DNA from: an uncultured virus (IMG/VR IMGVR_UViG_3300009658_000598)
Lineage: Duplodnaviria > Heunggongvirae > Uroviricota > Caudoviricetes
Direction: 5' to 3' (one strand)
IMG/VR virus record: IMGVR_UViG_3300009658_000598
Length of the DNA: 64,000 nucleotides
Positions 5,788-60,573 of this stretch are shown here, piece by piece (positions within the stretch are counted from its first letter, which is position 1; each line of letters begins with the position of its first letter). The notes under the pieces are model-generated. The model was not told the DNA's origin. It saw only the letters and a program-made list of their open reading frames with translations, and did not search any database. Both the position numbers and the translations under genes were made by a program.

Positions 5788-7431
5788 TTATCTCGCTTTT
5801 GCACTTAACTCTGTTGAGTTTTTATCACTTCTTATCTGCGATAGCAGCCTGTATGGCTGATCATCCGGGCAGGCATTTTTCCTTTTACGCGAAGCGGACT
5901 CCCCGTCAGGGGAGCCCGTTATCTCGTCGATATTTACGACAGCTCTGTTTCGTCTGCCGCTTGCAGTGCACATCATTGCACCTGTATAGTTCTCGCTGTA
6001 TCTGATGTTGAAGATATAGCTGTTGGAGTTGACCACCTGTACGCTGCTGATGAGCTTGTCCATAAATGCTGCGGAAGCTCCGCCCTTGAAGTCAGACATT
6101 GCGTGAAGTGTCTGTTCAATATTGCGTATGCTTTCTTTGAAGCTCTCTGCGTTATCCTTCGGCACTTCCTCAGCAGAAACATTGAGCAGTCTCTTCTTTT
6201 CATCTATCTCCGCTTGAATTTTACTGTGCTTTTGGGTGAACGCCTCCTTTGTAAGCACTCCTTCGGCTCTCATATCTATGAGGTTGTCAATCTTGCTTTC
6301 GAGTGCTTTTATCTCTGCGAGTATCTCACTGTCGCTCTTGTGTGTCTCGGGTGATGTATCGTCAGGGCGATAATATTTCTTCACAAGCTCAAGCGCTTTG
6401 GCAAATACCACTCGCTTGTTTACGAATGTATCCTCGAAGATATGCTCAGCAATGAGGTCAAGTCTCCACTGCGGAAGCATTTTCATTTCACAGAAGCCAG
6501 TGGCATCGAGGCCTGCTTCCTTGCGCGTCTTTGCGCTGCCGTGATTGAGCTTGTTGTAGCATCGGTATCCCCAGCTCGGAACTCCTGCCTTATTCTTGCC
6601 CCACAGGTCACGTCTGAACCCCGAACCGCAGGAGCATATCAGCTTGTTGGTCCACATATTTGTTGAGGGATTGCACCTCGACCTCAGCACCGTTCCGCCG
6701 ACTACCAGCGTCGGCTTTTTCTTTGATCTGCGCATTGCATTTGCCTTGTACCATTTGTCCTCATCGATGATAGCTTCAAACTTTTTCTCACCGATGATGT
6801 ATGTGTCCTCATCCTGATTTATTATACGCCGCTGGTCGAGATAATTATTGTTGTGGGACTTATTGTATACCACTCGCCCCATGTAGGTCGCGTTGCGTAT
6901 GATGCGCAGGATATTTCCGGAGTCCCACTTCACTGCTCCAGAAGCGTTTTTGTAATGGAGCAGTGTCAGTTCATCGCCTATCTTCTTGCCGCCAAGTCCC
7001 TGCAGGTACAGGTCGAATATCATTCGGACCGTCTCTGCCTGTTCGGGATCAACGACATAGGTATCGCCGACTTTGTTGTAGCCGAGAATATTTCCGTTGC
7101 CGTACAGTATTCCTTTTTCACGGCTTACCATCTGACCAGCACGAACTCTCTCCGAGACCTTGCGGCTCTCGTCCTGCGCCAGTGTAGCCATAAGTGAGAG
7201 CCGAAGCTCTCCGTCGCCGTCCATCGTCCAGATGTTGTCCTCGACGAAGAATACTTCAACTCCTATGTTGCGGAGCTCTCTTGTGAAGGAGAGTGTGTCC
7301 ACAGTGTTTCTTGCAAATCGGCATACTTCACGGGTAACAATCAGGTCGAACTTTCCGTTCTTCGCATCCGCTATCATTCTCAGAAACGATGGACGCTTCT
7401 TCGCCTGCGTACCTGTTATTCCTTCGTCCAT
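5788..7431 (-). pseudogene. Large serine recombinase, 5'-truncated by the prophage insertion
   Basis: Begins at the DEGITGT motif; has CRFARNT, LAQDESRKVSER, recombinase and zinc-ribbon regions; lacks the N-terminal YxRVS catalytic serine segment. Confidence 0.8.
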
Positions 7432-9227: not shown

Positions 9228-11113
9228 GTTTTCTCACTTCCATCGTAAAAATAATATTTCAAACTACCGTCCTTCTGGACTATGATCGCTTTGACTTGCT
9301 TCGCAAACTCAGAGGCATCAAATTCTTCTGTACCCATAATGTAAGCGGATACGGTTCGCAGATTGCAGTCTGCCAAGTCCTGTGCGTTGCACTCTGTTCT
9401 GACTTTTGATTTGCCTGGGCAATACCAATAGTGGTACTTTCCGTAGCTGCAATACCTGCGAAGTACATTCCCACAGATGCCGCATCTGATTTTTCCGATA
9501 AACTCGTCTGTCGAGGTGCTTTGATGAACATTCACTCTAAGTTTTAATGTTTCAAAGTGCTTGACCATGCCGTCTTTCAGATAAAAATCGATACTGCCTG
9601 TTTTCTGGACTACCATCTTTTCTACGGTTGCGGTGAAAAACTCATCATCAAAGGACTTTTTCTGCATCACTTTACAGAAGATTTCTCTGATTTCCGTATC
9701 TGCATAGTTCACGCTGTCGCAGGTAATGCCATGCTGGTGCTTTGCTCTGCAGCTCCAATATAAATGTCCGCCGTCTTTCGTGGTACTTATGGCTCTGCCA
9801 TACCGCTTGCCGCACATCCCACAGAAGATTTTCCCATCCAATAAGTTGTGCGGTATTTTTAGTACTTTTTCCTTTTTGACCTTCACAGGCTTTGGTGGCA
9901 TTTTCCATGTTTTTGTTTCGCCGCCCTTGAACTGCATCTGAACATCTCCGCCATCCAGCACAGTGATGCTGTTGACTGCTTCATTGAACTTCTGCTCGTC
10001 AAATCCATCCGTTCCCATTAGCTCTGCACATATTTCTTGGAGCTTTGGCTCCGTAAAACTCTGACTTCCGCAGTTCATACCTTTTTCCTTCTTACTGCGG
10101 CACAGCCATCTTGCACATTGAGTTTCTTTTGCGGCTGCTACCCTTGCGTATGATCTGCCGCAGATACCGCACTTTATCTTTCTGGTAAATGGGTAGGTCG
10201 GATTTTGCATCGACTCTCTACGCCTATGCTCAGCAAGTACTAATTCATAGGTTTCCTTGTCGATAATGGCTTCATGAGCATCCTCGATAATATACTGTGG
10301 CAGAACACCATCATTGATGACCTTTTTCCCTAAAATGGGGTCTGGTATGTAGGATTTCTGTCTGCGGATAATTCCTGCATAAATATCGTTATGCAAAAGT
10401 TGCCTTACCGTAGATTTATTAAAGAGCTTGTCGTTGATTGTGCGGTATCCTGCATCATTCATATTTTTTGCAATATTTCGCAGTGTTGTGCCGTCAAGGT
10501 ACATTCGAAACATCCATCGCACCATTTCGGCTTCTTCAGGAACTACCATGTAGCATTTCTGTTTCTCATCGTATTGGTAGCCACTTAGGTGCTTATTTGC
10601 CATACCAATCTCACCGGACTGAAAACGCTTGCGGATACCCCATTTACAGTTGTCTGAAATGGAACGGCTTTCTTCCTGTGCAAAGGATGCCAGGATGGAA
10701 AGCATCAGTTCTCCGTCACCGCTCATGGAATTGATATGCTCTTTTTCAAATCGCACTTCCACACCGAGACTTTTCAAATGCCGTACCGTTTCCAGAAGGT
10801 CAACCGTATTTCTTGCAAATCGGCTGATGGACTTTGTAAGGATAATGTCGATTTTCCCATCTTCGCAGTCCTGCAGCATTCGGCAGAACTCGTCACGCTT
10901 TGCAACCTTTGTGCCAGATATGCCATAATCTGCATATACCCCTGCGTACTGCCAGTCAGGATTCTTTTGAATCATACTGCTGTAATAGCTGACCTGTGCC
11001 GATGCGGAATGCAGTAAACGTTCGGTGTCTCTTGACACTCTGGCATAAGCTGCAACCTTTTTCTTAGGCTTTATAGCCGCCGCTTTGGGTTCAATTTTGC
11101 TTATCTTTCGCAT
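9212..11113 (-). CDS. Large serine recombinase 2 with triplicated zinc-ribbon modules
   Basis: AYARVSRD, SRFARNT; three KIxCGxCG modules. Confidence 0.92.
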   Translation of the reverse strand: MRKISKIEPKAAAIKPKKKVAAYARVSRDTERLLHSASAQVSYYSSMIQKNPDWQYAGVYADYGISGTKVAKRDEFCRMLQDCEDGKIDIILTKSISRFARNTVDLLETVRHLKSLGVEVRFEKEHINSMSGDGELMLSILASFAQEESRSISDNCKWGIRKRFQSGEIGMANKHLSGYQYDEKQKCYMVVPEEAEMVRWMFRMYLDGTTLRNIAKNMNDAGYRTINDKLFNKSTVRQLLHNDIYAGIIRRQKSYIPDPILGKKVINDGVLPQYIIEDAHEAIIDKETYELVLAEHRRRESMQNPTYPFTRKIKCGICGRSYARVAAAKETQCARWLCRSKKEKGMNCGSQSFTEPKLQEICAELMGTDGFDEQKFNEAVNSITVLDGGDVQMQFKGGETKTWKMPPKPVKVKKEKVLKIPHNLLDGKIFCGMCGKRYGRAISTTKDGGHLYWSCRAKHQHGITCDSVNYADTEIREIFCKVMQKKSFDDEFFTATVEKMVVQKTGSIDFYLKDGMVKHFETLKLRVNVHQSTSTDEFIGKIRCGICGNVLRRYCSYGKYHYWYCPGKSKVRTECNAQDLADCNLRTVSAYIMGTEEFDASEFAKQVKAIIVQKDGSLKYYFYDGSEKTWQKM

Positions 11114-28414: not shown

Positions 28415-29236
28415 ATGCGTGAAACAAAAGTATTCAGCAAAAACAGCACATATCAGAAATTTGAAGTGCTTAAGACTAACAGAAATAAAAGGTACAGATA
28501 TAACGAGTTCTTAGTTGAGGGTGTCAGAAGCCTTAATGAAGCTGTAAAGAACAAATGGAATATAAAATCTTTTATTTATGACGGAAACAATTTATCCGGC
28601 TGGGCAAAGGAAATGATTGCAAATATTAAAACAGATGAGAATTTTTGTCTTACAGCTGAGCTTATGAATGACCTCAGCAATAAAGATGATACGTCTGAGT
28701 TAATGGCTATCATTGAAATGCGTGAGGACAAGCTTGAGAACGTGTCGCTTTCCGAAAATCCTTTTATAGTATTATTTGACAGACCGTCAAACAAAGGCAA
28801 TCTCGGAACAATGATACGCTCTTGTGATGCACTCGGAGCAGATATGCTTATCATTACAGGACATTCCATAGACCTTTATGATCCTGATGTAGTTGTTTCT
28901 GCTATGGGTTCTTTTTTCAATATGCCCGTTATACGAATCGCTGATAATAACGATCTCTTTATGTATCTAAACAAATTGAAAGAACAGTATCCGAATTTCC
29001 TTACTGTCGGAACTACCGCTCACAAGCAAAATCCGATTTATTCAGCTGACCTTACAGTTCCTCTAATGCTAATGATGGGCAATGAAACTATGGGACTGAA
29101 CAAAGCATATAAAGAATATTGCGACCTGCTTTGTACTATTCCAATGTCAGAAAAATCATACGCATCTTCGTTCAATGTAAGCTGTGCTGCTTCAATTCTG
29201 ATGTACGAAATCACAAGGCAAAGGGGCATAAAGTAA
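28415..29236 (+). CDS. TrmH/SpoU-family RNA 2'-O-methyltransferase (moron)
   Basis: NLGTMIRSCDALG, MGNETMGL, IPM...SFNVSCAA SPOUT motifs; AT-rich, opposite strand. Confidence 0.88.
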   Translation: MRETKVFSKNSTYQKFEVLKTNRNKRYRYNEFLVEGVRSLNEAVKNKWNIKSFIYDGNNLSGWAKEMIANIKTDENFCLTAELMNDLSNKDDTSELMAIIEMREDKLENVSLSENPFIVLFDRPSNKGNLGTMIRSCDALGADMLIITGHSIDLYDPDVVVSAMGSFFNMPVIRIADNNDLFMYLNKLKEQYPNFLTVGTTAHKQNPIYSADLTVPLMLMMGNETMGLNKAYKEYCDLLCTIPMSEKSYASSFNVSCAASILMYEITRQRGIK

Positions 29237-30884: not shown

Positions 30885-30900
30885 TCTATCACCACCTAAC

Positions 30901-30926
30901 AAAAAAGACCTGCAAAAAGCAAGTCT
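30901..30926 (-). terminator. Intrinsic terminator immediately upstream of terL
   Basis: AGACTTGC/GCAGGTCT stem plus T-run. Confidence 0.7.
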
Positions 30927-31132
30927 GAATAATTTTAAGCCCCGTGGGGCAATTTTGTAATCGAGAACCTATTCCCATTGTAACCATGTTACCATACTAA
31001 TTCAAGTATATCAAGCATAAACGGAGAAATATACTGCACAAACATTACAGCTGTATTTTGTGTACTATATTTCTTCGGTACGAGCCACACAGCCCCATTT
31101 CTGAGGCTGTGTTTTGAAAATGATGGTGGGCA

Positions 31133-31474
31133 TTATCTGCCGATTTCGCATTCCCATTCAAATTCGCAGGCTGCTGCATATTCATCTTCGAAAAGGGCAT
31201 CATCGTCGATGTAGTCCTCTTCGTATTCAATGCTGTCGATTTCTTCAAATGTCGTTCCGTTTTCCTCTGCATCTTCCTTTGCAAATTCTTCGGCGTTCTT
31301 TTCAATCCAGGCTTTGAACTCCTCATCGTCCATGTGGTCATCGTTTTCAATCTCAAGTTCGTATTCGTACTCGCTGTCCACCCAGGTGATGATTGCCTTT
31401 GTGATTTCGGTTCTTTCGTTCCAGTCTGTTCTCCAAGCCTTTGCTCTTGCCTTTGCGATTCCGTATGATACCAT
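31133..31474 (-). CDS. Small highly acidic hypothetical protein
   Basis: 113 aa, 39 D/E by hand count; own promoter and ACGGAGG RBS. Confidence 0.8.
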   Translation of the reverse strand: MVSYGIAKARAKAWRTDWNERTEITKAIITWVDSEYEYELEIENDDHMDDEEFKAWIEKNAEEFAKEDAEENGTTFEEIDSIEYEEDYIDDDALFEDEYAAACEFEWECEIGR

Positions 31475-31714
31475 TTTAATTTCCTCCGTTTTTTTTCGCT
31501 TGGTTTCCCTTGCGTTGTGTACATATTACCGCATAGTGTGAATAATAGCAACCCGCTAAACTGCCAGAATATACAGCCATGAAACCGGCTCAGAATTGTG
31601 TATATTATGACATCAGAAACAAGCCGCCACGCTGCCGTTTGTGGGGCTTGTTTCTGCATTGGGTAAGTATTCGGAATCGTTAATTCTTGCCGCTGTGGGG
31701 CAACGTGGCGGCTG

Positions 31715-32071
31715 TCACTCCCTTATTACAATCGGCATCAAACCGTTAGGCGTAGGAACGAAAAGTTCAATGTTCCAGAAACGCTGTTTGTACTTTTCTA
31801 TAAGTCCGGGAGAAAGATCTGTGAAATCCTCATCTCCAAGTCCTGCGATAATGAAGGTGCCTTTGATGACATCTCCTGTTTCCGGAAGAAGTCTGTTCCA
31901 TTCTGTATCTGATTTCAGCTTTGATTCCTCATCGCAGATTATTGCGATTTCATCTTCAAAAGGGTAAATTGCCTCAATGTAACCGCCCACTGTTTTCTGC
32001 AGGGATTCAAGGCTATCATCAATGTCAGCAAGTCGTGGGTGCTTTCCCGGTTCAACAATAAGTATGTGCAT
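31715..32071 (-). CDS. DUF3846-like protein
   Basis: ILIVEPG...LESLQKTVGGYIE motif. Confidence 0.7.
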   Translation of the reverse strand: MHILIVEPGKHPRLADIDDSLESLQKTVGGYIEAIYPFEDEIAIICDEESKLKSDTEWNRLLPETGDVIKGTFIIAGLGDEDFTDLSPGLIEKYKQRFWNIELFVPTPNGLMPIVIRE

Positions 32072-32130
32072 GGCTTTTCCTTTCTGAGCCTGCGTGGGGC
32101 AGTTTCTTCTGCCCCCTTGGCTCCTCGGCT

Positions 32131-32493
32131 TTAGTTAATTCTGATTCGGATTGCGGGGTATTCTTTGCCCTTGCCCCAAATGTCCGGTCTGCTTACTTTG
32201 CAAAGTTCCTCGATGGTGCAGCCCTGGTTTGCGAGTTTGTGAAGGTTTTCAAGGAGTGCCGTGCTTGTTTCCGTAACCGCTATGGTTTCAACTCCTGCCT
32301 CTCTCATGGTCTTCACAAAATCACTCATGTCCGTTGTCCAGGGAAGTTCATTGCATTCAAATTCGCTGCTGTTGTGGTTAAGGTTGAATTCGTAAGTCCA
32401 GTAGGCTTCAAGTGTTCCTCGTCTCAGCTTGTTTGCATTGTTCTCGGCATTCTTTCTGAGATTTTCAAAGTATGTTTTAATCTGTTCGTTCAT
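32131..32493 (-). CDS. Conserved phage hypothetical protein
   Basis: 120 aa with own promoter and RBS. Confidence 0.7.
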   Translation of the reverse strand: MNEQIKTYFENLRKNAENNANKLRRGTLEAYWTYEFNLNHNSSEFECNELPWTTDMSDFVKTMREAGVETIAVTETSTALLENLHKLANQGCTIEELCKVSRPDIWGKGKEYPAIRIRIN

Positions 32494-32760
32494 GGTGTTT
32501 TCCTCCGTTTTTTCGTTATTTTCGGTCGGTTTCCCGTTCCGTTGTGTAGTATATTACCGCATATCAAGGGGATAGTCAACGATATCTGCGATAATAAATG
32601 TAACAAACATAAAGCCGATTTCGGAGGTAATTATTGTGTATAATATGACGGCACAACAAAGCCGCCTATGTGGCTCGTGTGGGGCGATTTTTCAAAAGGA
32701 ATAACTTTGCGGTGGTCTCCCTTAATGCCCACACAGCCAAACGTGGCGGCTTGTGTGCGA

Positions 32761-32961
32761 TTATTCAGTTGTATTGCGATGAATGATGCTTACGATTTTG
32801 TCCTGTTCTTCTTTGGAAATCCCGATGCTTTCCAAAGCCTCTCTTGTTCCACAGTCAGGGCATATTAGCGTCTGGTTGTCGATTCTGGAAAGTGCAGGAA
32901 CGCCATGATATTCTATGCCGCAATGCGGACAAACTCTTGTCACTTTTTCAGCCGTTTTCAT
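32761..32961 (-). CDS. Small zinc-finger protein
   Basis: CPHC...CPDC; overlaps the GGCT stop. Confidence 0.65.
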   Translation of the reverse strand: MKTAEKVTRVCPHCGIEYHGVPALSRIDNQTLICPDCGTREALESIGISKEEQDKIVSIIHRNTTE

Positions 32962-33421
32962 TTCTTACACCCCTTTCGCTAATATCAAACGCAAGCCGCA
33001 GATGTTTCAAATCAAAACCAAAATCACGGTACCCCTGAACGCAAGTTCTCACATAGGCATGACTTGGAATTTCCAGCTTTCGCTCCTCATGCATGATGTA
33101 CACAAAGGCAGTCAGCGTTTTTGTTTTGTCGGTTTTCCAGCATTTTACCGGCAGTTCCATTTCCGTTTTGTAATAGAAATTGGGGAAGCCCTCGTAGCGG
33201 TCAAGAGCCAGTTCATCTCGCTTTGAAACCGCCCAAACAGCAACCGGAACCATGCCACCCTTTTTCTTTTCAATGGTCAGGTAAGAACCAGTCTTACTGC
33301 CCTTGAATAATAATTGGTAATCGGGAATTTCTGCCGTTCCCACCACTTTGGCATCGGGGCAGCGAAACCGCATCTGCTGCACGTTTAGGTTGCTGCCGTA
33401 GGCAAGGTAAAATTTTGTCAT
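32948..33421 (-). CDS. Gamma-glutamylcyclotransferase-family protein
   Basis: YLAYGSNL and LDRYEG motifs. Confidence 0.85.
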   Translation of the reverse strand: MTKFYLAYGSNLNVQQMRFRCPDAKVVGTAEIPDYQLLFKGSKTGSYLTIEKKKGGMVPVAVWAVSKRDELALDRYEGFPNFYYKTEMELPVKCWKTDKTKTLTAFVYIMHEERKLEIPSHAYVRTCVQGYRDFGFDLKHLRLAFDISERGVRNENG

Positions 33422-33510
33422 CGTAATCAAATCCTTTCCGAAGGAAACATCCTTCTACCACCTTAAGCCACCCGCAGGTGGCAAGGGGGCAGGAGGATAT
33501 CTCCTGCGGT

Positions 33511-34455
33511 TTAGTTTCTGCCGAATCGGAATGTGGCATCGCCGCTTAGGTTTCTGGTCAGAAAATCTCTTGCTGTGGCGAATTCTTCACCAACCAGTCC
33601 CAGGCGAATCAGCCAAGTCCGCATGGCGAACTTTGGGTTTTCGGTCTGCTGTGGTTTTGGACTTGCTGTTCTTAGTTCCTTTGCCATTTCGGAAAGGGCA
33701 AGACAAAGCTGAATGTAGCTTTTCAGCTGTCCGGCATGAAGTCCGTTTTTCCGCTCCGCCGTTGGCTTGTCAAACTGGAAAAGCCGGAATTCAATCGTGC
33801 CTTTTGTAAAGGTTGCGTGGAGGTTCAGCATATGGTATCGGCTGTCATTGTAATGGTGGTCTCTGCCGTAGTTTGCACCGTTTGCTGTGTACCAAAGGTC
33901 TGCAAGCTGTGCCATGGTTGCAGGCTTTTTCTTGTTTACCTTTTCGATGAATTCCGGACTTACCGTTCTGCAGTAGCGGTTCATTCTGCCCTGATCGATT
34001 TTCAGGGCATCAGCAATCAGTTTTTCGTGGCTTGCCATGATGTTTGCAAGGTTGCGGAGTGTCTGCGGTGTGTGGCCGTTTGCACCGATGTGAATGTGAA
34101 CCCCAGCCCCAATTCCTGCGTGGCTGACTGCTCCGGCTTTTCTCAGTCGGCGAACAAGTTCCTGCAAGGTTTCAATATCCTCGTAGTGAAGAATCGGTGT
34201 AACCAGTTCGCACTTTTCGCTGTCGGGACCTGCAATGGAAACGTCTCTTTGAAATTTCCATTCTCTGCCCTGTGCATCCCATGCTGACCAGGTGCAGTAG
34301 CCGTTTCTGTTTGCTGTGTTTTCGTAGCGGCGTGTTCCGAAGAAGTCAGCGGCAATTTTTGCGGCCCGGTCTCTTGTAATGTGGTTCATCTCAATTTCCA
34401 CGCCTATGGTCTGGTTTTTCAGGTTTTCGATCTGCTTTCTTGTCTTTTCGTTCAT
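33511..34455 (-). CDS. Amidoligase (COOH-NH2 ligase) family protein
   Basis: GVEIEM, CELVTP, GVHIHIG, TIEFRLF motifs. Confidence 0.85.
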   Translation of the reverse strand: MNEKTRKQIENLKNQTIGVEIEMNHITRDRAAKIAADFFGTRRYENTANRNGYCTWSAWDAQGREWKFQRDVSIAGPDSEKCELVTPILHYEDIETLQELVRRLRKAGAVSHAGIGAGVHIHIGANGHTPQTLRNLANIMASHEKLIADALKIDQGRMNRYCRTVSPEFIEKVNKKKPATMAQLADLWYTANGANYGRDHHYNDSRYHMLNLHATFTKGTIEFRLFQFDKPTAERKNGLHAGQLKSYIQLCLALSEMAKELRTASPKPQQTENPKFAMRTWLIRLGLVGEEFATARDFLTRNLSGDATFRFGRN

Positions 34456-34646
34456 GGTATTTTCCTCCGTATTTCTGGGCTTTTTGCCCTTTCGTTGTGT
34501 TACATATTAACTCTAAACGGAGGATATAGCAATACGATTACTACACAATCTTTTTGGCTGTATTTCGGCGAAAGATTGTGTAAGATACACCCTTGATAAG
34601 GTTGCTATTCTATGGTAAAATACAGTACGATGGAATAGGTGCTCGC

Positions 34647-34883
34647 TTATTTTGAAGCCCCCAAAACCACCCTGAAACTATCCACTTCGGGAATCAAAGC
34701 GAGGGAAGAACCGTTTTCCCATTTCATGTGAACACTGCCAGCGTCATCAATATGAGTCACTTCACCGACTGTTCCGGGCAAAATCGGATAGGTTTCATCA
34801 CGCATAGAAATCAACTGTATTTTTGTTCCTGCAGGGTAGGCTTTTCGCAGCTGTTCCAGATACGCTTTATTCGGAAATTTCAT
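34647..34883 (-). CDS. DUF4314 protein
   Basis: YPAGTKIQL...IDDAGSVHMKWENGSSL. Confidence 0.75.
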   Translation of the reverse strand: MKFPNKAYLEQLRKAYPAGTKIQLISMRDETYPILPGTVGEVTHIDDAGSVHMKWENGSSLALIPEVDSFRVVLGASK

Positions 34884-40063: not shown

Positions 40064-40474
40064 TCAATCCGGGACTAAAAAATTTTGAAGTGCCGACCCA
40101 TGTATGCGATGCACTGTTCTAACCGACACATAAAGCATCTGGGCGATTTCTTCCCAACTAAAGCCTTCAAGATACCGGTAGCGGAGAACTAACTGTTCAT
40201 CACGATTGTTCATATTATCGATTGCCATATTGATTTCACCTTTGATTTTTACCAGATAGGAAACCTTATCTGCCACATCATGCTGTATCTCGTCAATCTT
40301 TTCGATACATTTGGCAAAAGGTGCTTCGGTAGAGCGATTTGAGTTGTAGTGTTCTTCAAAGCTACTACTTGAAACGTTGCTGGATAAATCTCTCCAATAG
40401 TCAATTTCACGTAGTCGGCAATGAATAAGTGCATCCAGGTGTCTTGCCTGGTTTAAGTATTCCTTAGCCGTCAT
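40064..40474 (-). CDS. ArpU/RinA-like late transcriptional activator (DUF1492-like)
   Basis: MTAKEYL N-terminus; LRYRY...SWEEIA..L.VS.R.VHRIH HTH; last early gene. Confidence 0.8.
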   Translation of the reverse strand: MTAKEYLNQARHLDALIHCRLREIDYWRDLSSNVSSSSFEEHYNSNRSTEAPFAKCIEKIDEIQHDVADKVSYLVKIKGEINMAIDNMNNRDEQLVLRYRYLEGFSWEEIAQMLYVSVRTVHRIHGSALQNFLVPD

Positions 40475-50250: not shown

Positions 50251-51306
50251 CTATTTCACAAAATGCTCATCTACTATTCTATTCAGCTGCAATGCAATCT
50301 CGGCAAAATCCTGATTTAAATCAAGAGTCTTTACGCTGATTTTGTTTCCACTCATAAGATAGCTATTATCTGGTTGAATTGCCTCATCTGTGGCTGCATA
50401 TAAAAGCATACCCGAAACCGTGTGAGGGGCATCGCCAAATTCAGTGTCTTTGTTTTTTACATATGTAAAAATCTGATAGAGATTCCCGGAATGCAGTGAA
50501 TGAACATCGTATTGTGTTTGTGTGGTGTGCGTGTAATACTTTGCATCAATAATTAGAACTGTACTCCCTTGTGTCAGCATAATATCACTCTGCATCACCG
50601 GAAGCATCGTCCCAATCCCATCATCCAGTGCCCACGGAATTTGCGAGGCTGTTGCCTTTACCTGCGGACACTCCTTGGAATAGTATTCCAGAATAAACTT
50701 CTCATACAACCGATTCATCCGTTGTTCGTCAACGAATGATGCCAATCGATATTCACCTGAATCAGTAGTTAAGAGCATTCCATCTAAAATGAGCTGACAA
50801 ATGCTTATGAGCATCCGATAGGTATTGTTATTCCTCTGAAAACGAATAGCCGACCAGCGTATAGAATTCGGATCTATCATATCCACATTCGAGAAAAACA
50901 ACATCTCTTTTTTCAGGTCGTTCTTATATTCCTGGCTCACTCTTGAATGTTGGAGCAAAAGCATAACAGTAGTTTTCAGAATCTGATTTAGAAGATTGTT
51001 TTCTGAAAGTTCATCATATTCACAAGTCAAAATTCGCTTTCTGGCTAAGCGATTTTGAATCGTTCCCGGCATATCAATTTTCCCTCGAACAACAGGCACA
51101 TCTTCCTTGCGGTTCAGATATTCCCGATACAGACCTTGCTTTAGCTGCCTGCCAATGCCTTTGGAAAGGATTGCCGCAAATAAATTGTGTATGTTTTCAA
51201 ATTCTTCCGTAGCAACATCCTCATAACCGCCCTGATTCAGTGTAGTAAAAGCATATGAAAGCATATAGTATATATTTTTTATGAAGATGCTCTTGTCTTT
51301 AATCAT
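50251..51306 (-). CDS. mcrC: McrC-family nuclease subunit
   Basis: IKNIYYMLSYA, MNRLYEKF, SD...IIDAKYY, LYQIFTY. Confidence 0.9.
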   Translation of the reverse strand: MIKDKSIFIKNIYYMLSYAFTTLNQGGYEDVATEEFENIHNLFAAILSKGIGRQLKQGLYREYLNRKEDVPVVRGKIDMPGTIQNRLARKRILTCEYDELSENNLLNQILKTTVMLLLQHSRVSQEYKNDLKKEMLFFSNVDMIDPNSIRWSAIRFQRNNNTYRMLISICQLILDGMLLTTDSGEYRLASFVDEQRMNRLYEKFILEYYSKECPQVKATASQIPWALDDGIGTMLPVMQSDIMLTQGSTVLIIDAKYYTHTTQTQYDVHSLHSGNLYQIFTYVKNKDTEFGDAPHTVSGMLLYAATDEAIQPDNSYLMSGNKISVKTLDLNQDFAEIALQLNRIVDEHFVK

Positions 51307-53801
51307 TGAAACACACCCTGCAAAACATTTTCCCATCTTTGGAGTTTGTTCGAATCATCAAACCAGTATTCGCTGAGCATTGGCAAAATATCATAATCCA
51401 CGATAGAGTGTAGCCACTCATCTGTGCAGATATCTTTACCGCAGAAATAGCTGTGCCCAATGCAGAATCCCTTTCCCAGAGATTTATCCAGAGTAATCTC
51501 ACGATTTAATTCCTTCACCTTTGATATCAGCTCATTCAGAGTTTCATTATTTAGTGCATTTTGATATTTTATAAATCCGTCAGAATCAAATCCTGGCTCC
51601 ACCTCGAAGAAGCTGAATCGGCGGCGCAGGGCATAATCAATCATAGCAAGGCTGCGGTCTGCTGTATTCATCATACCGATGATATAAAGATTTTTGGGGA
51701 CAGAGAAAGAAAGTCCATTGTACGCCAGCGTTGCCTTCGTGCCTCTGTAGTCCCGTTCAATCAACATCAGCAGTTCTCCGAAAATCTTACTCATGTTTCC
51801 GCGGTTAATCTCATCAATGATGAAAAAGAAATCTTTATCCGGCTGGTTGGCTGCTTTCTGACAAAATCGATAGAAAATACCATATTTCAGCTCGAAACCG
51901 TCCTCTACCGGCTTATATCCCATCATGAAATCCTCATAGGAATAGTTCTGATGGAACTGCACAAACTCTATGCAGTTGTCATCTTTTTCGCCCATCATCG
52001 ACCATGCCAGTCTTCTGGCTGCAAAGGTCTTACCAACGCCTGGAGCCCCCTGCAGGATGATGTTCTTCTTATTCTGAAGTACCGCCACGAGGCTTTCGTA
52101 GCGTTTCTCGGTCATATACACCTCATTAAGGAAATCGTCTTTTGTGTATTCCTCTATGGTTTCTTCAGCTGATATAGGATTCGCTTCTCTCACAATATCA
52201 AGAATAAAATCATATTCCTCTTTTGTCAGCCGGAACAGACTACCCTGTGCATTCTGGAAATACTCCATCTGCTCCAGTTCAGGGCACGCCTTCAATACCG
52301 CATAATCAATTGGTGAAGCAAAACTCTCCACCTTTTCAAACAAAATCTTCTCACCATCATTGGCAGCGGTAATCTGTCCGAGAGCTACGACCTGTTTTAC
52401 AGGATTCGACTCATAGCCGATAATCATGTCACCGGCCTTTGCATCCAAAAAGTTCTGAAAAATGCGGCGCTTGTTTCCGTTCTCATTATAAAGCGTATAA
52501 GACTGCGTCTCACCGACAGCGATGCCACTAAAGCTCCAAATTTTAGGATTGGCATTCAACCACCAATATCCAGGGGCATCTTTATCCTCTGAAACTGGTT
52601 CATCAGGTAATTCATCTATTAAATTAAGCAGTCTCCTTACCACATCGGGATAAGGTGTTAAGTCCGTCAAGGTTTTCATAGGTGCATTTCCCGGATACTG
52701 CCATTCACCCTTATGTGTCCATCTAACCTTGCGCACATTTTTAAAGTGTTCTTCATGCTCATCAAAAATGTAATCAGATTCAACAACTCCGCAGCCCACC
52801 AGCAAACGCAGACCTTTTTTTGCAAACACTATATCCCCAGGGTTGATTTCATTTGCGAACTGCCATGTTGCGTGAGCATCATTTTTATGGGAACTGTCAT
52901 CCGAAAATATCTCCTGCATTTTTTTCGCCATTTCATCTTTGCTATGAAATGCATGAAGATTTCCTAACGCTTCCCAACCAATCGCCATAATCCCAGCATT
53001 ATAGAATTCATCCCAATTTTCCGCACCGTCACCAGGAGAGTAAATCCAATAACGCTTTTTTGCTGCCGAATCACTATCAGCCGCTGTATCTTTTTCACCA
53101 GTGCTTTCTTCTGATTTTTCATCCACTATATAACGGCTGATATAAAATCCAACATCAATGGTCAGCGTCTTCAATTCCGGGTCGGGATAGCAGGTATCCG
53201 TCAGCTGCGACCGGAGCAAATTCACCAATTCAGTGTCTTCTTTCAGTGCAGTACTGATTTCGTCATAAAGGCGCAAAAAATTACGGATGTTATCTGCATA
53301 GGCACCCTTTTTGAATTGATAGTCCGATTCCAGTTCACCGGCAACTTTCTTTATCTCACCGAATTTATAGATATAATACTTGTTCGGATAGCGAAGCCAA
53401 AGATAAGTACTAATGGCATTCTCATACTGATAGTGCTGCGCCGCACCGTTTCCATACTTCTCTAAAAGAATAGAGGACTGCAGTTTGAACGCATTCATGC
53501 GTTCAAAAACATCTTTATTTTCATCAAAGAGGTCGAGAAACATAGCTCGTACTTCTTCCGGTGCGGCTTTTGCAAAGCCAATAATCATGCCCTTTGGAAA
53601 ATTGTTATTGGAAGCCAGCAAATTATATGTTTTCGCCAGAGAGCGTTCCAACATCTCTGGGAAGTCCTTAGCATTGACATCCCAATTATCCTGAAACCAT
53701 TTTACAGCTTCCCACTTATATTTTTCGTTGCCCCACTGCGTGGAAACAAAGTTCTGTTTATACCGTGCCAGTGCATCTTTTAACCGAAATTTATCAAACA
53801 T
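51303..53801 (-). CDS. mcrB: McrB-family GTPase with EVE-like recognition domains
   Basis: GAPGVGKT, IIDEINR, MNTADRS; YWIYSPG and YWWLNANP modules. Confidence 0.9.
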   Translation of the reverse strand: MFDKFRLKDALARYKQNFVSTQWGNEKYKWEAVKWFQDNWDVNAKDFPEMLERSLAKTYNLLASNNNFPKGMIIGFAKAAPEEVRAMFLDLFDENKDVFERMNAFKLQSSILLEKYGNGAAQHYQYENAISTYLWLRYPNKYYIYKFGEIKKVAGELESDYQFKKGAYADNIRNFLRLYDEISTALKEDTELVNLLRSQLTDTCYPDPELKTLTIDVGFYISRYIVDEKSEESTGEKDTAADSDSAAKKRYWIYSPGDGAENWDEFYNAGIMAIGWEALGNLHAFHSKDEMAKKMQEIFSDDSSHKNDAHATWQFANEINPGDIVFAKKGLRLLVGCGVVESDYIFDEHEEHFKNVRKVRWTHKGEWQYPGNAPMKTLTDLTPYPDVVRRLLNLIDELPDEPVSEDKDAPGYWWLNANPKIWSFSGIAVGETQSYTLYNENGNKRRIFQNFLDAKAGDMIIGYESNPVKQVVALGQITAANDGEKILFEKVESFASPIDYAVLKACPELEQMEYFQNAQGSLFRLTKEEYDFILDIVREANPISAEETIEEYTKDDFLNEVYMTEKRYESLVAVLQNKKNIILQGAPGVGKTFAARRLAWSMMGEKDDNCIEFVQFHQNYSYEDFMMGYKPVEDGFELKYGIFYRFCQKAANQPDKDFFFIIDEINRGNMSKIFGELLMLIERDYRGTKATLAYNGLSFSVPKNLYIIGMMNTADRSLAMIDYALRRRFSFFEVEPGFDSDGFIKYQNALNNETLNELISKVKELNREITLDKSLGKGFCIGHSYFCGKDICTDEWLHSIVDYDILPMLSEYWFDDSNKLQRWENVLQGVFQ

Positions 53802-53813
53802 AAAATCGCCCCC

Positions 53814-56780
53814 TTATGCCTTTCGCAAGCTCTTGTATATCTCTTCTGTAAAGATACCAAGTACCTGCTTTTTGATTTCATCATTACTGAGCAGCAACGA
53901 AAAGAAATCTTGATTTTGCTCCAATCCTTCAATCAGTGCGTCATCTATATCATCAAAATACGAGAATTCAAAGTCTTTGACGGTATTATTCTTTGCACTG
54001 GTTTTCAGTTTGTCGGATTTCAGCAGAATATCCCTAATCTGAAGCATTGCCTTTACCGCGACATCATTATCATAGGATTTTCCTGTGCGGCTGTTTATTT
54101 CTGCGATAATCTGTGAAAGTCGTTCTTCCTTTGCCTCTGTCAGACCAAAGTTCTCTGCCGTAGGTAATTTCACTATCGGCTGCGCCGTCAGATTTGGCTT
54201 GGTATGCTCTTCTGCTTTTTTCTGAACGAAATTTGTAGCCTTGATTTTGCCGTCCAAATTATAGCCACCGCCCGGATGCTTAATGTTGATGTATGCCAGC
54301 AGGTAAGTGATGAAGTTGTACTTCTTATGAAGATCGGTATCCTCAAAACACGATACCTGTAGCAGAAACTCGTAAAACCGTACAAAGTGCCGCATCTTTG
54401 ATACAATATCCTGCTGTATGGCAATCTCATACTGCTCAATCATATTTTTTGCACGCTTAAAGTAAAATGTCAGCTTCTGCTTATCCTTCGATGAAATATT
54501 TTTCTTATAGAGCAGGTCGTTTGCCTTTTCAATGTCATCCGGGTCAAGAACGGTATACGCATCTATCTGTGCTTCCATATCATAAATGGCAGTAGGCGTT
54601 ACAGATGTAGAAAGTAATGTGGTTGTGTAAAACGGTGCGAATGCTGCTTTGATATCCTCGTATGTATTTGCAAAGTCCAGCACAAAAGTTTTCTTCTCGA
54701 ACGGTGGGCAGATACGGTTCAAGCGGGAAAGCGTCTGAACGGCAGATACGCCCTTCAGCTTTTTCAGCACATACATAGCGCAGAGCTTCGGCTGGTCAAA
54801 CCCAGTCTGATATTTATTAGCGACCAGAAGCACCTGATATTCGTCCTTGTCAAATTCCTTAGTCAGACGATCCTCTGGGAAGCCGTTCATGGATGCCTCG
54901 GAATATTCGGTATCATCGTCTGGGAGTTTCACCTTGCCGGAAAAAGCCACCAGCGCTTTAATGTCCGAGTAGCCCTTCTTCTTGGTATAGTCTTCAAAAG
55001 CCTGGCGGTACTTCACAGCCCCCTGTCTGGATGCTGTGATGACCATTGCCTTTGCCATGCCACCTAGTTCCGGCATAACGGTCGTGCGGAAATGCTCCAC
55101 GATAACCTCCACCCGCTGGGCAATATTCGTTTCATGCAGCTCCACAAAACGGGCAATCTGCCGCTTGGCATCAACTGTTTTGCACCGAGGGTCTTCTTCG
55201 ATTTCCTTATTGATCTGATAGAAGGTGTCGTAAGTCGTATAATTCTGAAGGACATCGAGAATAAAGCCTTCCTCAATGGCTTGCTTCATGGAGTAGATAT
55301 GGAATGCTTCACGCTGACCTTTCGTGTTTAAACGACCGAACAGCTGAATGGTTGTCGGCTTTGGTGTCGCTGTAAAAGCAAACATGGATACATTCGCCTG
55401 TTTGCCGTTTCTGCGGATTTCATCCGTAATCATATCTTCAACATCGGCACCCTCTTGTTCTCCTGCACCAAGAGACTTTGTGACAGCCGCCATGTCCTTA
55501 CCCGCTGTGGAGGAATGTGCTTCATCAATAATAACAGCGAAACGCTTATTTTTTAGTCCGGCTACGCTGTCCACAATATACGGGAATTTCTGAATTGTAG
55601 TTGCAATGATTTTCGTATTGCCGTTCAGAGCAATAGCAAGGTCAGCGGAGTTACACTTATCGTCCATGACTCGGATAAGACCCGCTTTATGCTCCATACC
55701 CATGATGGCTTTCTGCAGCTGACGGTCAACCACGACTCTGTCGGTGATGATCACGACATTGTCAAAAATGATTTTGTTGTCTGCATCATGCAGAGAAGTC
55801 AGACGGTGTGCCAGCCATGCAATAGAGTTCGTTTTGCCAGAGCCTGCGCTGTGCTGAATCAGATAGTTCTGCGTAGTGCCGTTGTCACGGACATCACCCA
55901 GCAGCTTGCGAATCACATCGAGCTGATGATATCGAGGGAATATCACATTCTCGGACTTTTTCGTTTTCCCTGTCAGCTCGTCCTTGCTTTCTTTGTTTTC
56001 TATAAAGATAAACTTGCTGATGAGGTCGAGAACGGCATCCTTTGTCAGAATGTCCTCCCACATATAGGACACGCTGTATTTGTCTTTGAAAGTAGGGTTT
56101 CCCGCACCAGCATTAACCCCTTCGCCGTTGCCCATGTTAAATGGCAGGAAGAAAGTGGCGTTGCCTGCGAGCTTGGTGGTCATATAGACCTGCTCCAGAT
56201 CCATTGCAAAGTTCACAAGGCATCCGGCCTTAAACCAGAACAGACGGGTTTTCGGGTCACGGTCTACACGGAACTGATAGATGGCATCCTGATAGGACTG
56301 ACCTGCGGCATTGCATTTCAGTTCAAAGGACATAATAGCAAGACCATTCAGGAAAATCACCAAGTCAATACGTTCATCATCGCTTGCCCAGACTTCCTCC
56401 ATGACGGAGAAAATATTCTTTTCGTATTTCGCCAGAAGCTCACGGTTGAAGGTGGTTGCAGGCTTGGTGTACATGAGTTCCAGCTTCATGTTGGAAATCT
56501 CAATGCCGTGCTTCAGCACATCCAGCAGACTGCCGCGGGTCTTAGTTACCTCGGCATTGATAAAGCTGACAAGGGTATCCTCCAAATCAGATTTATAGAT
56601 TTTGCGGAGTGCCTCCATCTCATCTGGCTGGGTATCGTTCAGAAACTGAAACAGCAGCTCACGATCCATAGCAAACAGACGGTCATAGCTGGTTGCCTTG
56701 CGGATGATATAACCGTTATCCTGCGAGAGCCTGTCCATGATGAAATGCTGATATTCTTTTTCCGAGAGAATATTATTCAT
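53814..56780 (-). CDS. hsdR: Type I restriction subunit
   Basis: FELK, HSAGSGKT, DEAH, FTATP, TGFDQP, QTLSRLNR. Confidence 0.93.
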   Translation of the reverse strand: MNNILSEKEYQHFIMDRLSQDNGYIIRKATSYDRLFAMDRELLFQFLNDTQPDEMEALRKIYKSDLEDTLVSFINAEVTKTRGSLLDVLKHGIEISNMKLELMYTKPATTFNRELLAKYEKNIFSVMEEVWASDDERIDLVIFLNGLAIMSFELKCNAAGQSYQDAIYQFRVDRDPKTRLFWFKAGCLVNFAMDLEQVYMTTKLAGNATFFLPFNMGNGEGVNAGAGNPTFKDKYSVSYMWEDILTKDAVLDLISKFIFIENKESKDELTGKTKKSENVIFPRYHQLDVIRKLLGDVRDNGTTQNYLIQHSAGSGKTNSIAWLAHRLTSLHDADNKIIFDNVVIITDRVVVDRQLQKAIMGMEHKAGLIRVMDDKCNSADLAIALNGNTKIIATTIQKFPYIVDSVAGLKNKRFAVIIDEAHSSTAGKDMAAVTKSLGAGEQEGADVEDMITDEIRRNGKQANVSMFAFTATPKPTTIQLFGRLNTKGQREAFHIYSMKQAIEEGFILDVLQNYTTYDTFYQINKEIEEDPRCKTVDAKRQIARFVELHETNIAQRVEVIVEHFRTTVMPELGGMAKAMVITASRQGAVKYRQAFEDYTKKKGYSDIKALVAFSGKVKLPDDDTEYSEASMNGFPEDRLTKEFDKDEYQVLLVANKYQTGFDQPKLCAMYVLKKLKGVSAVQTLSRLNRICPPFEKKTFVLDFANTYEDIKAAFAPFYTTTLLSTSVTPTAIYDMEAQIDAYTVLDPDDIEKANDLLYKKNISSKDKQKLTFYFKRAKNMIEQYEIAIQQDIVSKMRHFVRFYEFLLQVSCFEDTDLHKKYNFITYLLAYINIKHPGGGYNLDGKIKATNFVQKKAEEHTKPNLTAQPIVKLPTAENFGLTEAKEERLSQIIAEINSRTGKSYDNDVAVKAMLQIRDILLKSDKLKTSAKNNTVKDFEFSYFDDIDDALIEGLEQNQDFFSLLLSNDEIKKQVLGIFTEEIYKSLRKA

Positions 56781-57135
56781 GATCTGGCTCCTTTCCTCGT
56801 AATATATAGTGTCTACCATAATCATCACTAAACACGACATCAATCAACCGAACGCCGTTTTGCACATAAACTTCGCACCATGTATCTGCGCAGTGGTTTC
56901 CAAGCCATCTTTCCTGAATGCTGTAAATCACTGAACTGGTTTTATCTACCCAATATGCAATGGCATCGTTGACTTCATCAGTAAAGTGAGCAGGAATACC
57001 TACTCTGGAACTAAAGCCCTCAACGGCAACTTGCAATAAAAACAGTTCATCCCTATCTTTTAGCACCTTTAGAAATTCAGCACCTTTTACCACCATACAC
57101 GGAGTATCTTTATGATAGGAGTATTCAACTTTCAT
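56773..57135 (-). CDS. Hypothetical protein between hsdS and hsdR
   Basis: 120 aa, overlapping both neighbours (ATGA coupling, GGAGG RBS). Confidence 0.7.
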   Translation of the reverse strand: MKVEYSYHKDTPCMVVKGAEFLKVLKDRDELFLLQVAVEGFSSRVGIPAHFTDEVNDAIAYWVDKTSSVIYSIQERWLGNHCADTWCEVYVQNGVRLIDVVFSDDYGRHYILRGKEPDHE

Positions 57136-58388
57136 GAGATGGGTACCTCCTTCTTTCCGGTTACATACTCAAAAATGAGCGATTTCTTGTATTCGTCAAG
57201 TGTTGCAAGCTGTTCTTTTTTATCGGAGATAACATCATTCGCTTTTGCAAGCACCGTATCAATATGCTCAACAATCGCTTCCTGCTCGTCCAGCGGTGGA
57301 ACTGGATACGAAAGATCCGCTAACTTGTTCCACCGCAAATCACAGGAGCGAACTCGAATTCCCGTTGCCAGTGCAAGAAATACATCACTGTACGCCATAC
57401 TGCGAAGATAGTACATAATGTACCGCTTGTTTTGATAGGTATCCAAAACATTAAGGACAGGTGACGCTTTGCCTCTTGAATCAGAAATGCCGATAGAGCC
57501 TGCAAAGCCATCCATACCATGTACAACCAGATCGCCGATGTCAATACCTTGATAGCCAATTTCCTTATCGGACATCGTAAAGCCATCTTCACGGCGATTG
57601 CTTCTCAAGGTTACCTCACCATCACGGAAACAGGTAATTACGCCGTCATCCTCACGCACCGGCTTCTGCATATAGCGCAGAATATACTTACCACGGATAA
57701 CCTCCCAATGTGAAGGCATATTGCCAATCCACTGGATTCCGCTGTCCTTCATCTCAGCATCGGGATTCAGCCCTTTGGTAACAGTTTCGGTGATGACCGA
57801 CCGCTTGTACTGCTCCAAGGTATCGATCTGTGCCTGAATGTCAGCGGTGAGAGCATCGATCTCGGCGCATTTGGCATCAAGATAGGCGGCAATGCGTTCC
57901 TGTTCCTCAACAGTTGGAAGTACTGTCCATGAATTCAAAAGCCAAGGAGCGAAGATGTTTCTTTGAATCGTACCTACACCTCTTGAAGCTGTTTCATATT
58001 GCTGAACCATACTGCTATCACGAAACAAGAAGTTCATATATAGTGGATTGCATTTATCATTCATGCTGTATACAAAATATGCCGGACTAATGATTCCATT
58101 ATATTTTGATACACCAACAGAACCTCTCCATGCCTGTTGATTATTTAAGACAAAATCGCCAATGTTGACGTTTTGATAATTTGACATATCTTGGCTCGGT
58201 TTATGAACTTGCATCCCATTGGAATCAGCATATGAGATAACTCCTCGGTCCAAATAAACTGAGAGTAGCTCTCTATCTCCACTATTCTTCTCACTTCGCA
58301 GTGTCAATATGGTTTTTAATTTCTTGATTTCCCAGTTTCTCGGGATAAGTCCGAAACTTGAAATTCCGCTTTCCTTCATCTCTCTCAT
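57132..58388 (-). CDS. hsdS: Type I specificity subunit
   Basis: Two TRDs; P..EEQ..I repeats; MKDSG..W.G..P.HW. Confidence 0.92.
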   Translation of the reverse strand: MREMKESGISSFGLIPRNWEIKKLKTILTLRSEKNSGDRELLSVYLDRGVISYADSNGMQVHKPSQDMSNYQNVNIGDFVLNNQQAWRGSVGVSKYNGIISPAYFVYSMNDKCNPLYMNFLFRDSSMVQQYETASRGVGTIQRNIFAPWLLNSWTVLPTVEEQERIAAYLDAKCAEIDALTADIQAQIDTLEQYKRSVITETVTKGLNPDAEMKDSGIQWIGNMPSHWEVIRGKYILRYMQKPVREDDGVITCFRDGEVTLRSNRREDGFTMSDKEIGYQGIDIGDLVVHGMDGFAGSIGISDSRGKASPVLNVLDTYQNKRYIMYYLRSMAYSDVFLALATGIRVRSCDLRWNKLADLSYPVPPLDEQEAIVEHIDTVLAKANDVISDKKEQLATLDEYKKSLIFEYVTGKKEVPIS

Positions 58389-58400
58389 ACCGTCACCGCC

Positions 58401-60503: not shown

Positions 60504-60573
60504 TGCTGTTTACCTCTCTTTTCGATTTTGTAATATCGGTTATTTTCATTATACCGTTTTATCTGTCCCATAA

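What the first reader, a model, noticed from the sequence alone, without database searches (positions are those of the whole stretch)
31596..32752. Two homologous ~94-nt structured elements behind plus-strand -10 boxes: repeated ncRNA candidate
Seen: 31621-31713 and 32659-32752 both begin AAGCCGCC, contain GTGGGGC at the same offset and end AACGTGGCGGCT, so the ends pair into a closing stem while the interiors diverge. Both start 25 nt after the start of TTGTGTATA(T/A)TATGAC. A related hairpin at 31081-31112 (CGAGCCACACAGCC) is complementary to TGTGGCTCG in the second element. GTGGGGC hairpin arms recur near 30944, 31695 and 32095. They lack U-tails, so they are not simple terminators. Inference: a family of small RNAs transcribed divergently from each cassette promoter, or ssDNA/processing structures or cassette-shuffling sites.
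Basis: partly seen in the sequence, partly recalled or inferred. Interest (0 to 1): 0.7.

Follow-up and report, generated by a model that had tools for sequence, protein, structure and literature searches.

The report
Palindromic seams between prophage gene cassettes
A gut-bacterial prophage carries the same roughly 100-base imperfect palindrome right after the last gene of two small accessory-gene cassettes and just before the next cassette's predicted promoter; it likely acts as a stop signal between cassettes rather than as a free small RNA, but its nearly fixed length and conserved centre remain unexplained.

Summary
The two elements are real and homologous (72/127 identical without gaps). 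They lie in a Ruminococcus-type temperate phage; a 92%-identical relative is filed as Ca. Heliusvirales. Each abuts the stop codon of a minus-strand cassette gene and sits at a fixed distance from the next cassette's promoter. The family (35 lineages, 52% mean identity) is a near indel-free dyad with a conserved core; in every context inspected it lay at such junctions. A structured ncRNA family is not supported: no consensus fold, compensatory changes at background (7/333), no strand bias. The "-10 box" is one arm of a helically phased inverted repeat (TACACAA-N16/N26-TTGTGTA). Only element 1's subfamily also has an opposite-strand -35. Element 1 does have U-tails: it is a bidirectional terminator-like hairpin. 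Best reading: a terminator/insulator-plus-promoter seam that works like T4-type PeSLs. Against it, only 14/35 lineages look like terminators, and the fixed geometry hints at a DNA-protein site. The scan reported what is probably this element on other DNA (e1-5797607). RNA data were uninformative.

The parts
31614..31717 (-). Element 1: imperfect dyad that starts at the DUF3846 stop codon (31715-31717)
   Evidence: (CM 109 bits)
31614..31656 (.). Bidirectional terminator-like hairpin of element 1, with TTGTTTCTG after the stem on both strands
   Evidence: subfamily fold with double changes
31661..31674 (-). Core of element 1 (variant of the family consensus CCGYAAAGTTAYCC)
31562..31602 (.).
31523..31551 (-). 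Predicted sigma-A-type cassette promoter TTGCTA-17-TAATAT
31133..31474 (-). 113-aa very acidic protein, no family hit
31715..32071 (-). DUF3846 gene
32131..32493 (-). DUF7698 gene, followed by a short hairpin near 32085-32125
32551..32579 (-). Predicted cassette promoter TTGACT-17-TAATAT
32599..32640 (.). Inverted-repeat pair upstream of the DUF7698 promoter (arms 32599-32606 and 32634-32640)
32648..32763 (-). Element 2: long imperfect dyad that starts at the zinc-ribbon gene's stop codon (32761-32763), followed by TTTGTTGTG
   Evidence: (CM 119 bits)
32698..32712 (-). Core of element 2, at the dyad centre
32761..34455 (-). Amidoligase, gamma-glutamyl cyclotransferase and zinc-ribbon cassette
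34504..34631 (.). Amidoligase promoter (-), shared inverted repeat, and a consensus divergent plus-strand tandem promoter (34593-34621) pointing into the DUF4314 3' end
31081..31112 (.). Short hairpin after the acidic-protein gene: same position as the long element, but not a family member (CM E 0.15)
30898..31064 (-). Pre-terL unit: inverted repeat, tandem promoter (31014-30986, 31005-30977), GCCCC/GGGGC hairpin near 30944, U-tailed terminator 30906-30926

Best explanation
Each element is a roughly 100-base imperfect palindrome placed right after the last stop codon of an accessory-gene cassette, and it likely works as a transcription stop and insulator in the cassette mRNA's 3' end, while the conserved terminator-plus-promoter seam likely also supplies shared sequence for gaining and losing cassettes. 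Shown: position, homology, dyad geometry, fixed spacing, the inverted repeat and promoter consensus downstream, U-rich tails in both window copies, and variable cassette content among relatives. Inferred: that RNA polymerase stops there. In element 1 this would use the local hairpin in either direction; in element 2 the base of the long stem plus TTTGTTGTG. Also inferred: that the inverted repeat binds a regulator, and that exchange is by homologous or microhomology recombination.
For: Element 1 abuts the DUF3846 stop and element 2 the zinc-ribbon stop. Relatives without the long element often carry a short hairpin in the same slot. Element 1's subfamily (9 sequences) keeps the right-hand hairpin: 24 consensus pairs, 97% paired, 4 with double changes. 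Terminator-like ends occur on the gene-sense strand in 14 of 35 lineages against 7 of 35 antisense. Two unrelated opposite-strand cargo genes stop at the element's promoter-side edge: L092 ORF ending at 9347 and the HepT-like gene in L219 ending at 6604, element 6598-6710. All 10 matches in complete genome G001 fall in four prophage cassette arrays. Cassette content varies among relatives. PeSLs are an experimentally supported precedent (PMC2839356).
Against: 21 of 35 lineages show no terminator-like end on the sense strand. Several junctions already have a short hairpin just upstream of the long element, so it looks additional. A terminator does not need a conserved central core, near-zero indels, or core-to-repeat gaps in 46/58-59/70-bp classes. 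Compensatory change along the long stem is at background. Deletion end-points differ between lineages, so the seam is not a precise exchange site. No transcript ends were observed.
Confidence: 0.5

Rival explanations
1. The dyad is a double-stranded DNA binding platform: a protein binds phased half-sites in both arms and the core, in helical register with the TACACAA/TTGTGTA repeat, and co-regulates the cassette promoters.
For: CCAC-to-core spacing is 38-39 in 33/35 lineages and core-to-TACACAA 67-68 in 29/35 at 52% mean identity, while leaders vary from 41 to 58 nt. All 52 core-plus-repeat matches with a downstream promoter fall in gap classes 46, 58-59 or 70 (not independent events). Arms show about 10-bp GC periodicity (10/2000 and 0/2000 permutations). 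Arms keep sequence rather than pairing. No strand bias.
Against: The element stays intact where the repeat is deleted or moved away (L029, L095 type, L092, L219). Many promoters of the same class lack it, including all 22 loci L150-L171 at E<0.001. No binding protein was identified. The periodicity rests on three periods per arm.
Confidence: 0.2
2. The long stem is an mRNA processing or stability signal (RNase III-type cleavage or 3' protection) that cuts or stabilises cassette and read-through transcripts.
For: 28/35 lineages have at least 10 expected long-range pairs. Native arms pair better than non-native ones, -32.0 against -26.7 kcal/mol. Position directly after stop codons resembles T7/SP82 processing sites (recalled, no call).
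Against: Only 10/35 have a helix of 18 or more pairs. Compensation is at background. Subfamily folds differ.
Confidence: 0.12
3. A small RNA is transcribed from the opposite strand, starting just after the TAnnnT hexamer.
For: TAnnnT is present in 44 of 61 junctions. Element 1's subfamily has YTGAAA at 16-17 bp in 7 of 8. The antisense strand folds more stably in 26/35.
Against: The -35 is at background in the other junctions (2 of 53) and an extended -10 is found in 0 of 61. The same TAnnnT follows the opposite arm of the repeat. A/C excess appears in all registers, and short hairpins show a similar antisense excess, 21/36. No consensus structure and no Rfam hit.
Confidence: 0.08
4. A zipper-type attenuator: a weak left hairpin and a right terminator alternate with a long zipped stem and set read-through from one cassette into the next.
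For: The topology resembles cATT of pLS20 (PMC13401043). Element 1's local and long-range folds lie within about 3 kcal/mol.
Against: The zipped form also pairs the bases next to the U-tail, so both forms would terminate. A crude split fold is within 5 kcal/mol of the full fold in only 3/35 lineages. The element sits in a 3' UTR, not a 5' leader.
Confidence: 0.06
5. An attC-like or MITE/REP-like mobile or recombination element.
For: Imperfect palindrome right after stop codons. One deletion lineage (L029) joins two hairpin feet at GGCT.
Against: No copies outside prophage arrays in G001. Other deletions end elsewhere. Cassettes carry their own promoters. No attC R-box arrangement is visible in the consensus (attC features recalled).
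Confidence: 0.04

Closest known systems
PeSLs (promoter-early stem-loops) of T4-type phages RB49/phi1 (Arbiol et al. 2010, PMC2839356; abstract and section 13 read)
   Same: Repeated unit of stop codon, GC-rich stem-loop, strong sigma-70/A promoter, SD and small accessory gene; located in variable regions; proposed to stop spill-over into virion genes and to drive shuffling.
   Different: Temperate siphophage of Ruminococcus. The stem-loop is a fixed-length dyad of about 100 bp with a conserved core, lying wholly upstream of a helically phased inverted repeat. In PeSLs the stem-loop position varies and most often lies within the promoter. No function was tested here.
Zipper-type attenuator cATT of pLS20 (PMC13401043; abstract, sections 25 and 27, first part of the Discussion read)
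   Same: Weak upstream hairpin, long imperfect stem and downstream terminator, with complementary outer parts.
   Different: cATT is in a 5' leader and leaves the terminator's 3' strand free when zipped. Here the element is in a 3' UTR, the outer pairing reaches the U-tail, and two near-equal folds are rare.
EGeRS2/Reg576 establishment regulon of Bacillus plasmid p576 (PMC6294495, abstract and outline; PMC8708921, passages)
   Same: One conserved promoter-operator unit repeated in front of several small accessory genes of a mobile element.
   Different: Plasmid, not phage. A different operator (dual TTATCCC, ribbon-helix-helix repressor). No regulator is identified here.
Long-stem terminator TerR of pLS20 (PMC10325885, passages)
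   Same: Long stem followed by a U-rich tail in a Gram-positive mobile element.
   Different: TerR has a perfect stem and 10 uninterrupted U. These stems are imperfect and the tails interrupted or missing.

Membership tests
PeSL-like cassette junction | Repeated consensus sigma-70/A promoter before small accessory genes | tested here: met
PeSL-like cassette junction | GC-rich stem-loop between the upstream stop codon and the next gene | tested here: met
PeSL-like cassette junction | Stem-loop terminates transcription | tested here: inconclusive
   Sequence only: terminator-like in both window copies and 14/35 lineages
PeSL-like cassette junction | Gene gain and loss by recombination between copies, mini-circles | tested here: inconclusive
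   Variable cassette content with varied end-points; circles not testable
PeSL-like cassette junction | T4-type myovirus hyperplastic region | tested here: not met
   Temperate Ruminococcus phage; works like a PeSL but is not one
Structured non-coding RNA family | One consensus structure with compensatory changes | tested here: not met
   0 consensus pairs; 7/333 compensatory, equal to background; weak excess
Structured non-coding RNA family | Own promoter on the RNA strand | tested here: inconclusive
   -35 in 7/8 of element 1's subfamily and 2/53 others
Structured non-coding RNA family | Discrete transcript observed | not testable with these tools
   Only assembled contigs with flat, low cover
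Any Rfam 15 family | Score at gathering threshold | tested here: not met
Zipper-type attenuator | Located in a 5' leader before the first gene | tested here: not met
   3' UTR position
Zipper-type attenuator | Two mutually exclusive, near-equal folds, one without a terminator | tested here: not met
   Near-equal in element 1 and 3/35 lineages, but both folds pair next to the U-tail
MITE/REP-like repeat | Copies dispersed in the host chromosome | tested here: not met
   10 of 10 matches in G001 are in prophage arrays
Ca. Heliusvirales (host phage) | Marker genes and TerL clade | tested here: inconclusive
   DUF2800, Enc34 SSB, PolA and TerL hit by Pfam; a 92%-identical region lies in a record filed as Ca. 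Heliusvirales; the TerL HMM cut-off of PMC11283538 was not run

The most novel reading that the evidence does not exclude
The dyad is a phased DNA nucleoprotein switch. A phage protein wraps or bridges its two arms and core in register with the TACACAA/TTGTGTA repeat, so that terminator, operator and promoter form one portable 270-bp control unit. That unit co-regulates a shuffled accessory regulon and, through the same repeat before terL, ties it to the switch into virion-gene expression in a widespread gut-phage order.
Probability: 0.18. Interest if true: 0.65.

Novelty: new variant of a known kind. Interest (0 to 1): 0.33.

Why it matters
It annotates the control seams of the accessory-gene hotspot of a common gut prophage group. 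The profile model and the promoter/repeat consensus mark where small unknown genes are swapped, including a very acidic protein of no known family. It also removes a false small-RNA candidate. If the fixed geometry reflects a protein-bound DNA structure, it would be an undescribed regulatory architecture and a handle on the unknown regulator of these cassettes.

Tried and rejected
Rfam: no hit at gathering over the window; 5 chance hits at E<=10 locally. RNAalifold on 32 copies: 0 pairs. A mis-indexed right-hairpin count was discarded. Small-peptide coding: open frames in 13-25 of 35 lineages across the six frames, none standing out. Core as an antisense to cassette leaders: -13.07 kcal/mol against cassette leaders versus -12.74 against other 5' regions, and own leader no better than others; rejected. 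Frpo-type single-strand promoter: promoter spacers are not complementary to the upstream arm (read); rejected. Strand of folding from G-U versus A-C counts: explained by composition. RNA runs X1, X3, X4 and X5 (4 of 20 listed) are contigs with low, flat cover that is highest at 39.6-42 kb in X1, X3 and X4; DNA carry-over cannot be excluded and strand and ends cannot be read. A recalled link between the zipper attenuator and pLS20 establishment genes was wrong; the attenuator precedes the conjugation operon. The U-counts printed are shifted by about 3 columns and were not used; and 60 counts were used. The right-arm profile is also mis-registered and was not used.

Full report
Setting. The window is a temperate phage contig of 68,286 bases with the late genes on the minus strand: HNH, terS, two DNA methylases, an amidoligase-like ORF, DUF4314, then three small cassettes (amidoligase-GGACT-zinc ribbon; DUF7698-DUF3846; a 113-aa acidic protein), then terL. 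The element-1 region is 92% identical to two Ruminococcus phage records, one inspected and filed as Ca. Heliusvirales. Amidoligase relatives gave 80 viral and 80 genomic loci, in which the cassettes between amidoligase and terL vary in number and kind.

Observation. The motifs and offsets are as described. The two stretches 31596-31722 and 32634-32760 are 72/127 identical without gaps, so the interiors are homologous too. Both fold better than shuffles on both strands. Element 2's minimum-energy fold is the long stem (-41.8 against -29.6 kcal/mol for local hairpins only). Element 1's contains the terminator-like hairpin (-39.8), with the forced long-range form at -36.9.

The '-10 boxes'. A pattern search gave 134 de-duplicated cassette-type promoters, TTG(C/A)nn-17-(T/G)AAnAT, a few of them false hits. 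Of these, 84 have an upstream inverted pair TACACAA...TT(G/C)TGTA, against a mean of 1.1 (maximum 5) in 100 shuffles. The spacer is 14-17 in 37 and 25-28 in 45 of the 84. The proximal arm lies 9-11 or 19-20 bp before the -35 in 101 of 106. Both arms share the profile TTGTGTAnnnTA. Steps of one helical turn suggest a protein-bound operator (inference). On the opposite strand, an extended -10 is found in 0 of 61 element-bearing junctions. A -35 with at least 4/6 matches is found in 7 of 8 of element 1's subfamily but 2 of 53 others. A consensus divergent promoter does exist in this system, at the DUF4314 junction (34593-34621), and it looks different.

The family. Thirty-two hand-picked copies align almost without gaps. 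A covariance model built from them found both window copies and about 60 further matches at E<0.001 in 80 genomic loci, none in L150-L171. It matched 9 of 121 genomes related to G001 (those contexts were not all inspected). All 10 matches in complete genome G001 fall in four prophage arrays. From the top 64 of 149 hits, 35 lineages below 80% identity were kept after dropping those under 110 nt; mean identity is 52%. The consensus is an arm AGCC-N5-GTTGCC-N2-TGTG, a central core CCGYAAAGTTAYCC and an inverted arm. CCAC-to-core spacing is 38-39 in 33/35 and core-to-TACACAA 67-68 in 29/35. Leaders, by contrast, run 41-58 nt, with one of 84, in the 26 of 35 that could be read. A model-free pattern search allowing 43-73 bases gave 52 matches with a downstream promoter, all at gaps 46 (4), 58-59 (35) or 70 (13). 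The 96 without a promoter were spread over the range. These are related sequences, not 52 events.

Is it a structured RNA? RNAalifold finds no consensus pair. For the dyad helix, 61.5% of cells pair against 59.6% in column shuffles (9/500) and 32-43% in slid registers. Double changes are 35 against 27.6 (23/500) and the covariation score is reached by 2/500 shuffles, a weak excess that relatedness can give. On a tree of 74 sequences (from 162, below 92% identity, structure-blind alignment), 7 of 333 changes at Watson-Crick pairs on the dyad diagonal are compensatory. That is 2.1%, the mean of 35 diagonals. Recombination between copies may blunt this test, and no positive control was run. In favour of some pairing: 28/35 lineages have at least 10 expected long-range pairs, and native arms pair about 5 kcal/mol better than non-native arms on either strand. 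Deviations from consensus are matched by the partner 1.19 times as often as expected, the top of a 0.90-1.19 range. Subfamilies fold differently: terminator hairpin in element 1's, long stem in element 2's. There is no strand signal beyond composition, no coding signal and no Rfam hit. Public RNA runs were uninformative.

How it most likely works. The element fills the slot that short hairpins fill in other junctions. Both window copies end in a U-rich tail on the gene-sense strand. Two unrelated opposite-strand cargo genes in relatives stop at its promoter-side edge. I therefore read it as a terminator or insulator at the cassette 3' end, part of a terminator-operator-promoter seam (0.5). The weak point is that 21 of 35 lineages, including all six that follow the amidoligase gene, have no terminator-like sense end, and that termination does not explain the core or the fixed length. 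A DNA-protein platform explains those (0.2) but not the intact copies separated from the repeat. Processing or stability (0.12), antisense small RNA (0.08), zipper attenuator (0.06) and a mobile or attC-like element (0.04) follow.

Comparison with what is known. It works like the PeSLs of T4-type phages (PMC2839356, abstract and section 13; this lead came from earlier scan notes and I read the paper), but it is not a member. The topology recalls the pLS20 zipper attenuator (PMC13401043, abstract and three sections), but two defining features fail. The repeated promoter-operator recalls the Reg576 regulon (PMC6294495, abstract and outline). PMC11283538 (passages) defines the phage order; 'promoter' and 'amidoligase' do not occur in its main text. 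PMC11318856 (passages) lists amidoligase and GGACT only as accessory genes. I found no description of this element in Rfam or in paper searches. Supplements of large RNA-motif screens were not inspected and could hold it. Earlier scan notes describe the promoter-plus-dyad cassettes in other genomes, and one (e1-5797607) describes a roughly 90-base hairpin about 70 bases before the promoter in a Ruminococcus-type prophage, probably this family; I could not compare its sequence.

Verdict. A real, selected, repeated junction element and a new variant of a known kind of cassette punctuation, not a supported small-RNA family. Interest 0.33, kept above routine by the unexplained fixed geometry.

Noticed in passing
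window 30898-30926 (-): A U-tailed terminator-like hairpin sits directly before the terL ribosome-binding site; such a hairpin is found in 37 of 50 distinct terL upstream regions. Virion-gene expression would need antitermination; no system was identified. The sigma-region-4/DUF1492 protein at 40064-40474 is a candidate.
   Followed up: partly
window 30935-31064 (-) and 34548-34665 (+): The unit before terL and the divergent unit at the DUF4314 3' end are inverted homologues that bracket the whole cassette array. Each is a tandem promoter (two -35/-10 pairs about 9 bp apart) followed by conserved sequence with small hairpins. The pre-terL unit would give a terminated RNA of about 80 nt, a better small-RNA or leader candidate than the finding itself.
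   Followed up: partly
window 28415-29236 (+): A SpoU/TrmH-family RNA 2'-O-methyltransferase moron between terL and portal, below the cut-offs of RlmB and NshR/TsnR. Relatives carry other cargo in this slot.
   Followed up: partly
window 31133-31474 (-): A 113-aa very acidic protein with no Pfam, PHROG or NCBIfam hit, conserved in many relatives; a possible DNA mimic or anti-defence protein (inference).
   Followed up: partly
cassette leaders, e.g. window 31505-31520 (-): Leaders just after the -10 keep a C-GNRA-G motif followed by GGGAAAAC-like bases; 75 of 134 promoters match. Function unexplained.
   Followed up: partly
L002 3470-3659, L218 near 10500-10565, L092 near 10820-10890: A recurring insert of about 62 nt appears inside element 2, inside a leader and inside a short hairpin of different relatives; it looks like a tiny mobile sequence.
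   Followed up: no
short hairpins such as window 31081-31112: Short junction hairpins are often followed on the gene strand by YTCGTAC or YTCGTT instead of a U-tail.
   Followed up: no
G001:C1 near 1.65, 1.81, 1.91 and 1.96 Mb: One genome holds four related prophages with these arrays, which would allow cassette exchange among them. One has a frameshifted amidoligase and a long insertion, possibly a group II intron, after the portal gene.
   Followed up: no
window 50251-62868: Gene sizes and N-terminal sequences suggest McrBC-like and type I restriction-modification cargo in the prophage; not scanned against family libraries.
   Followed up: no
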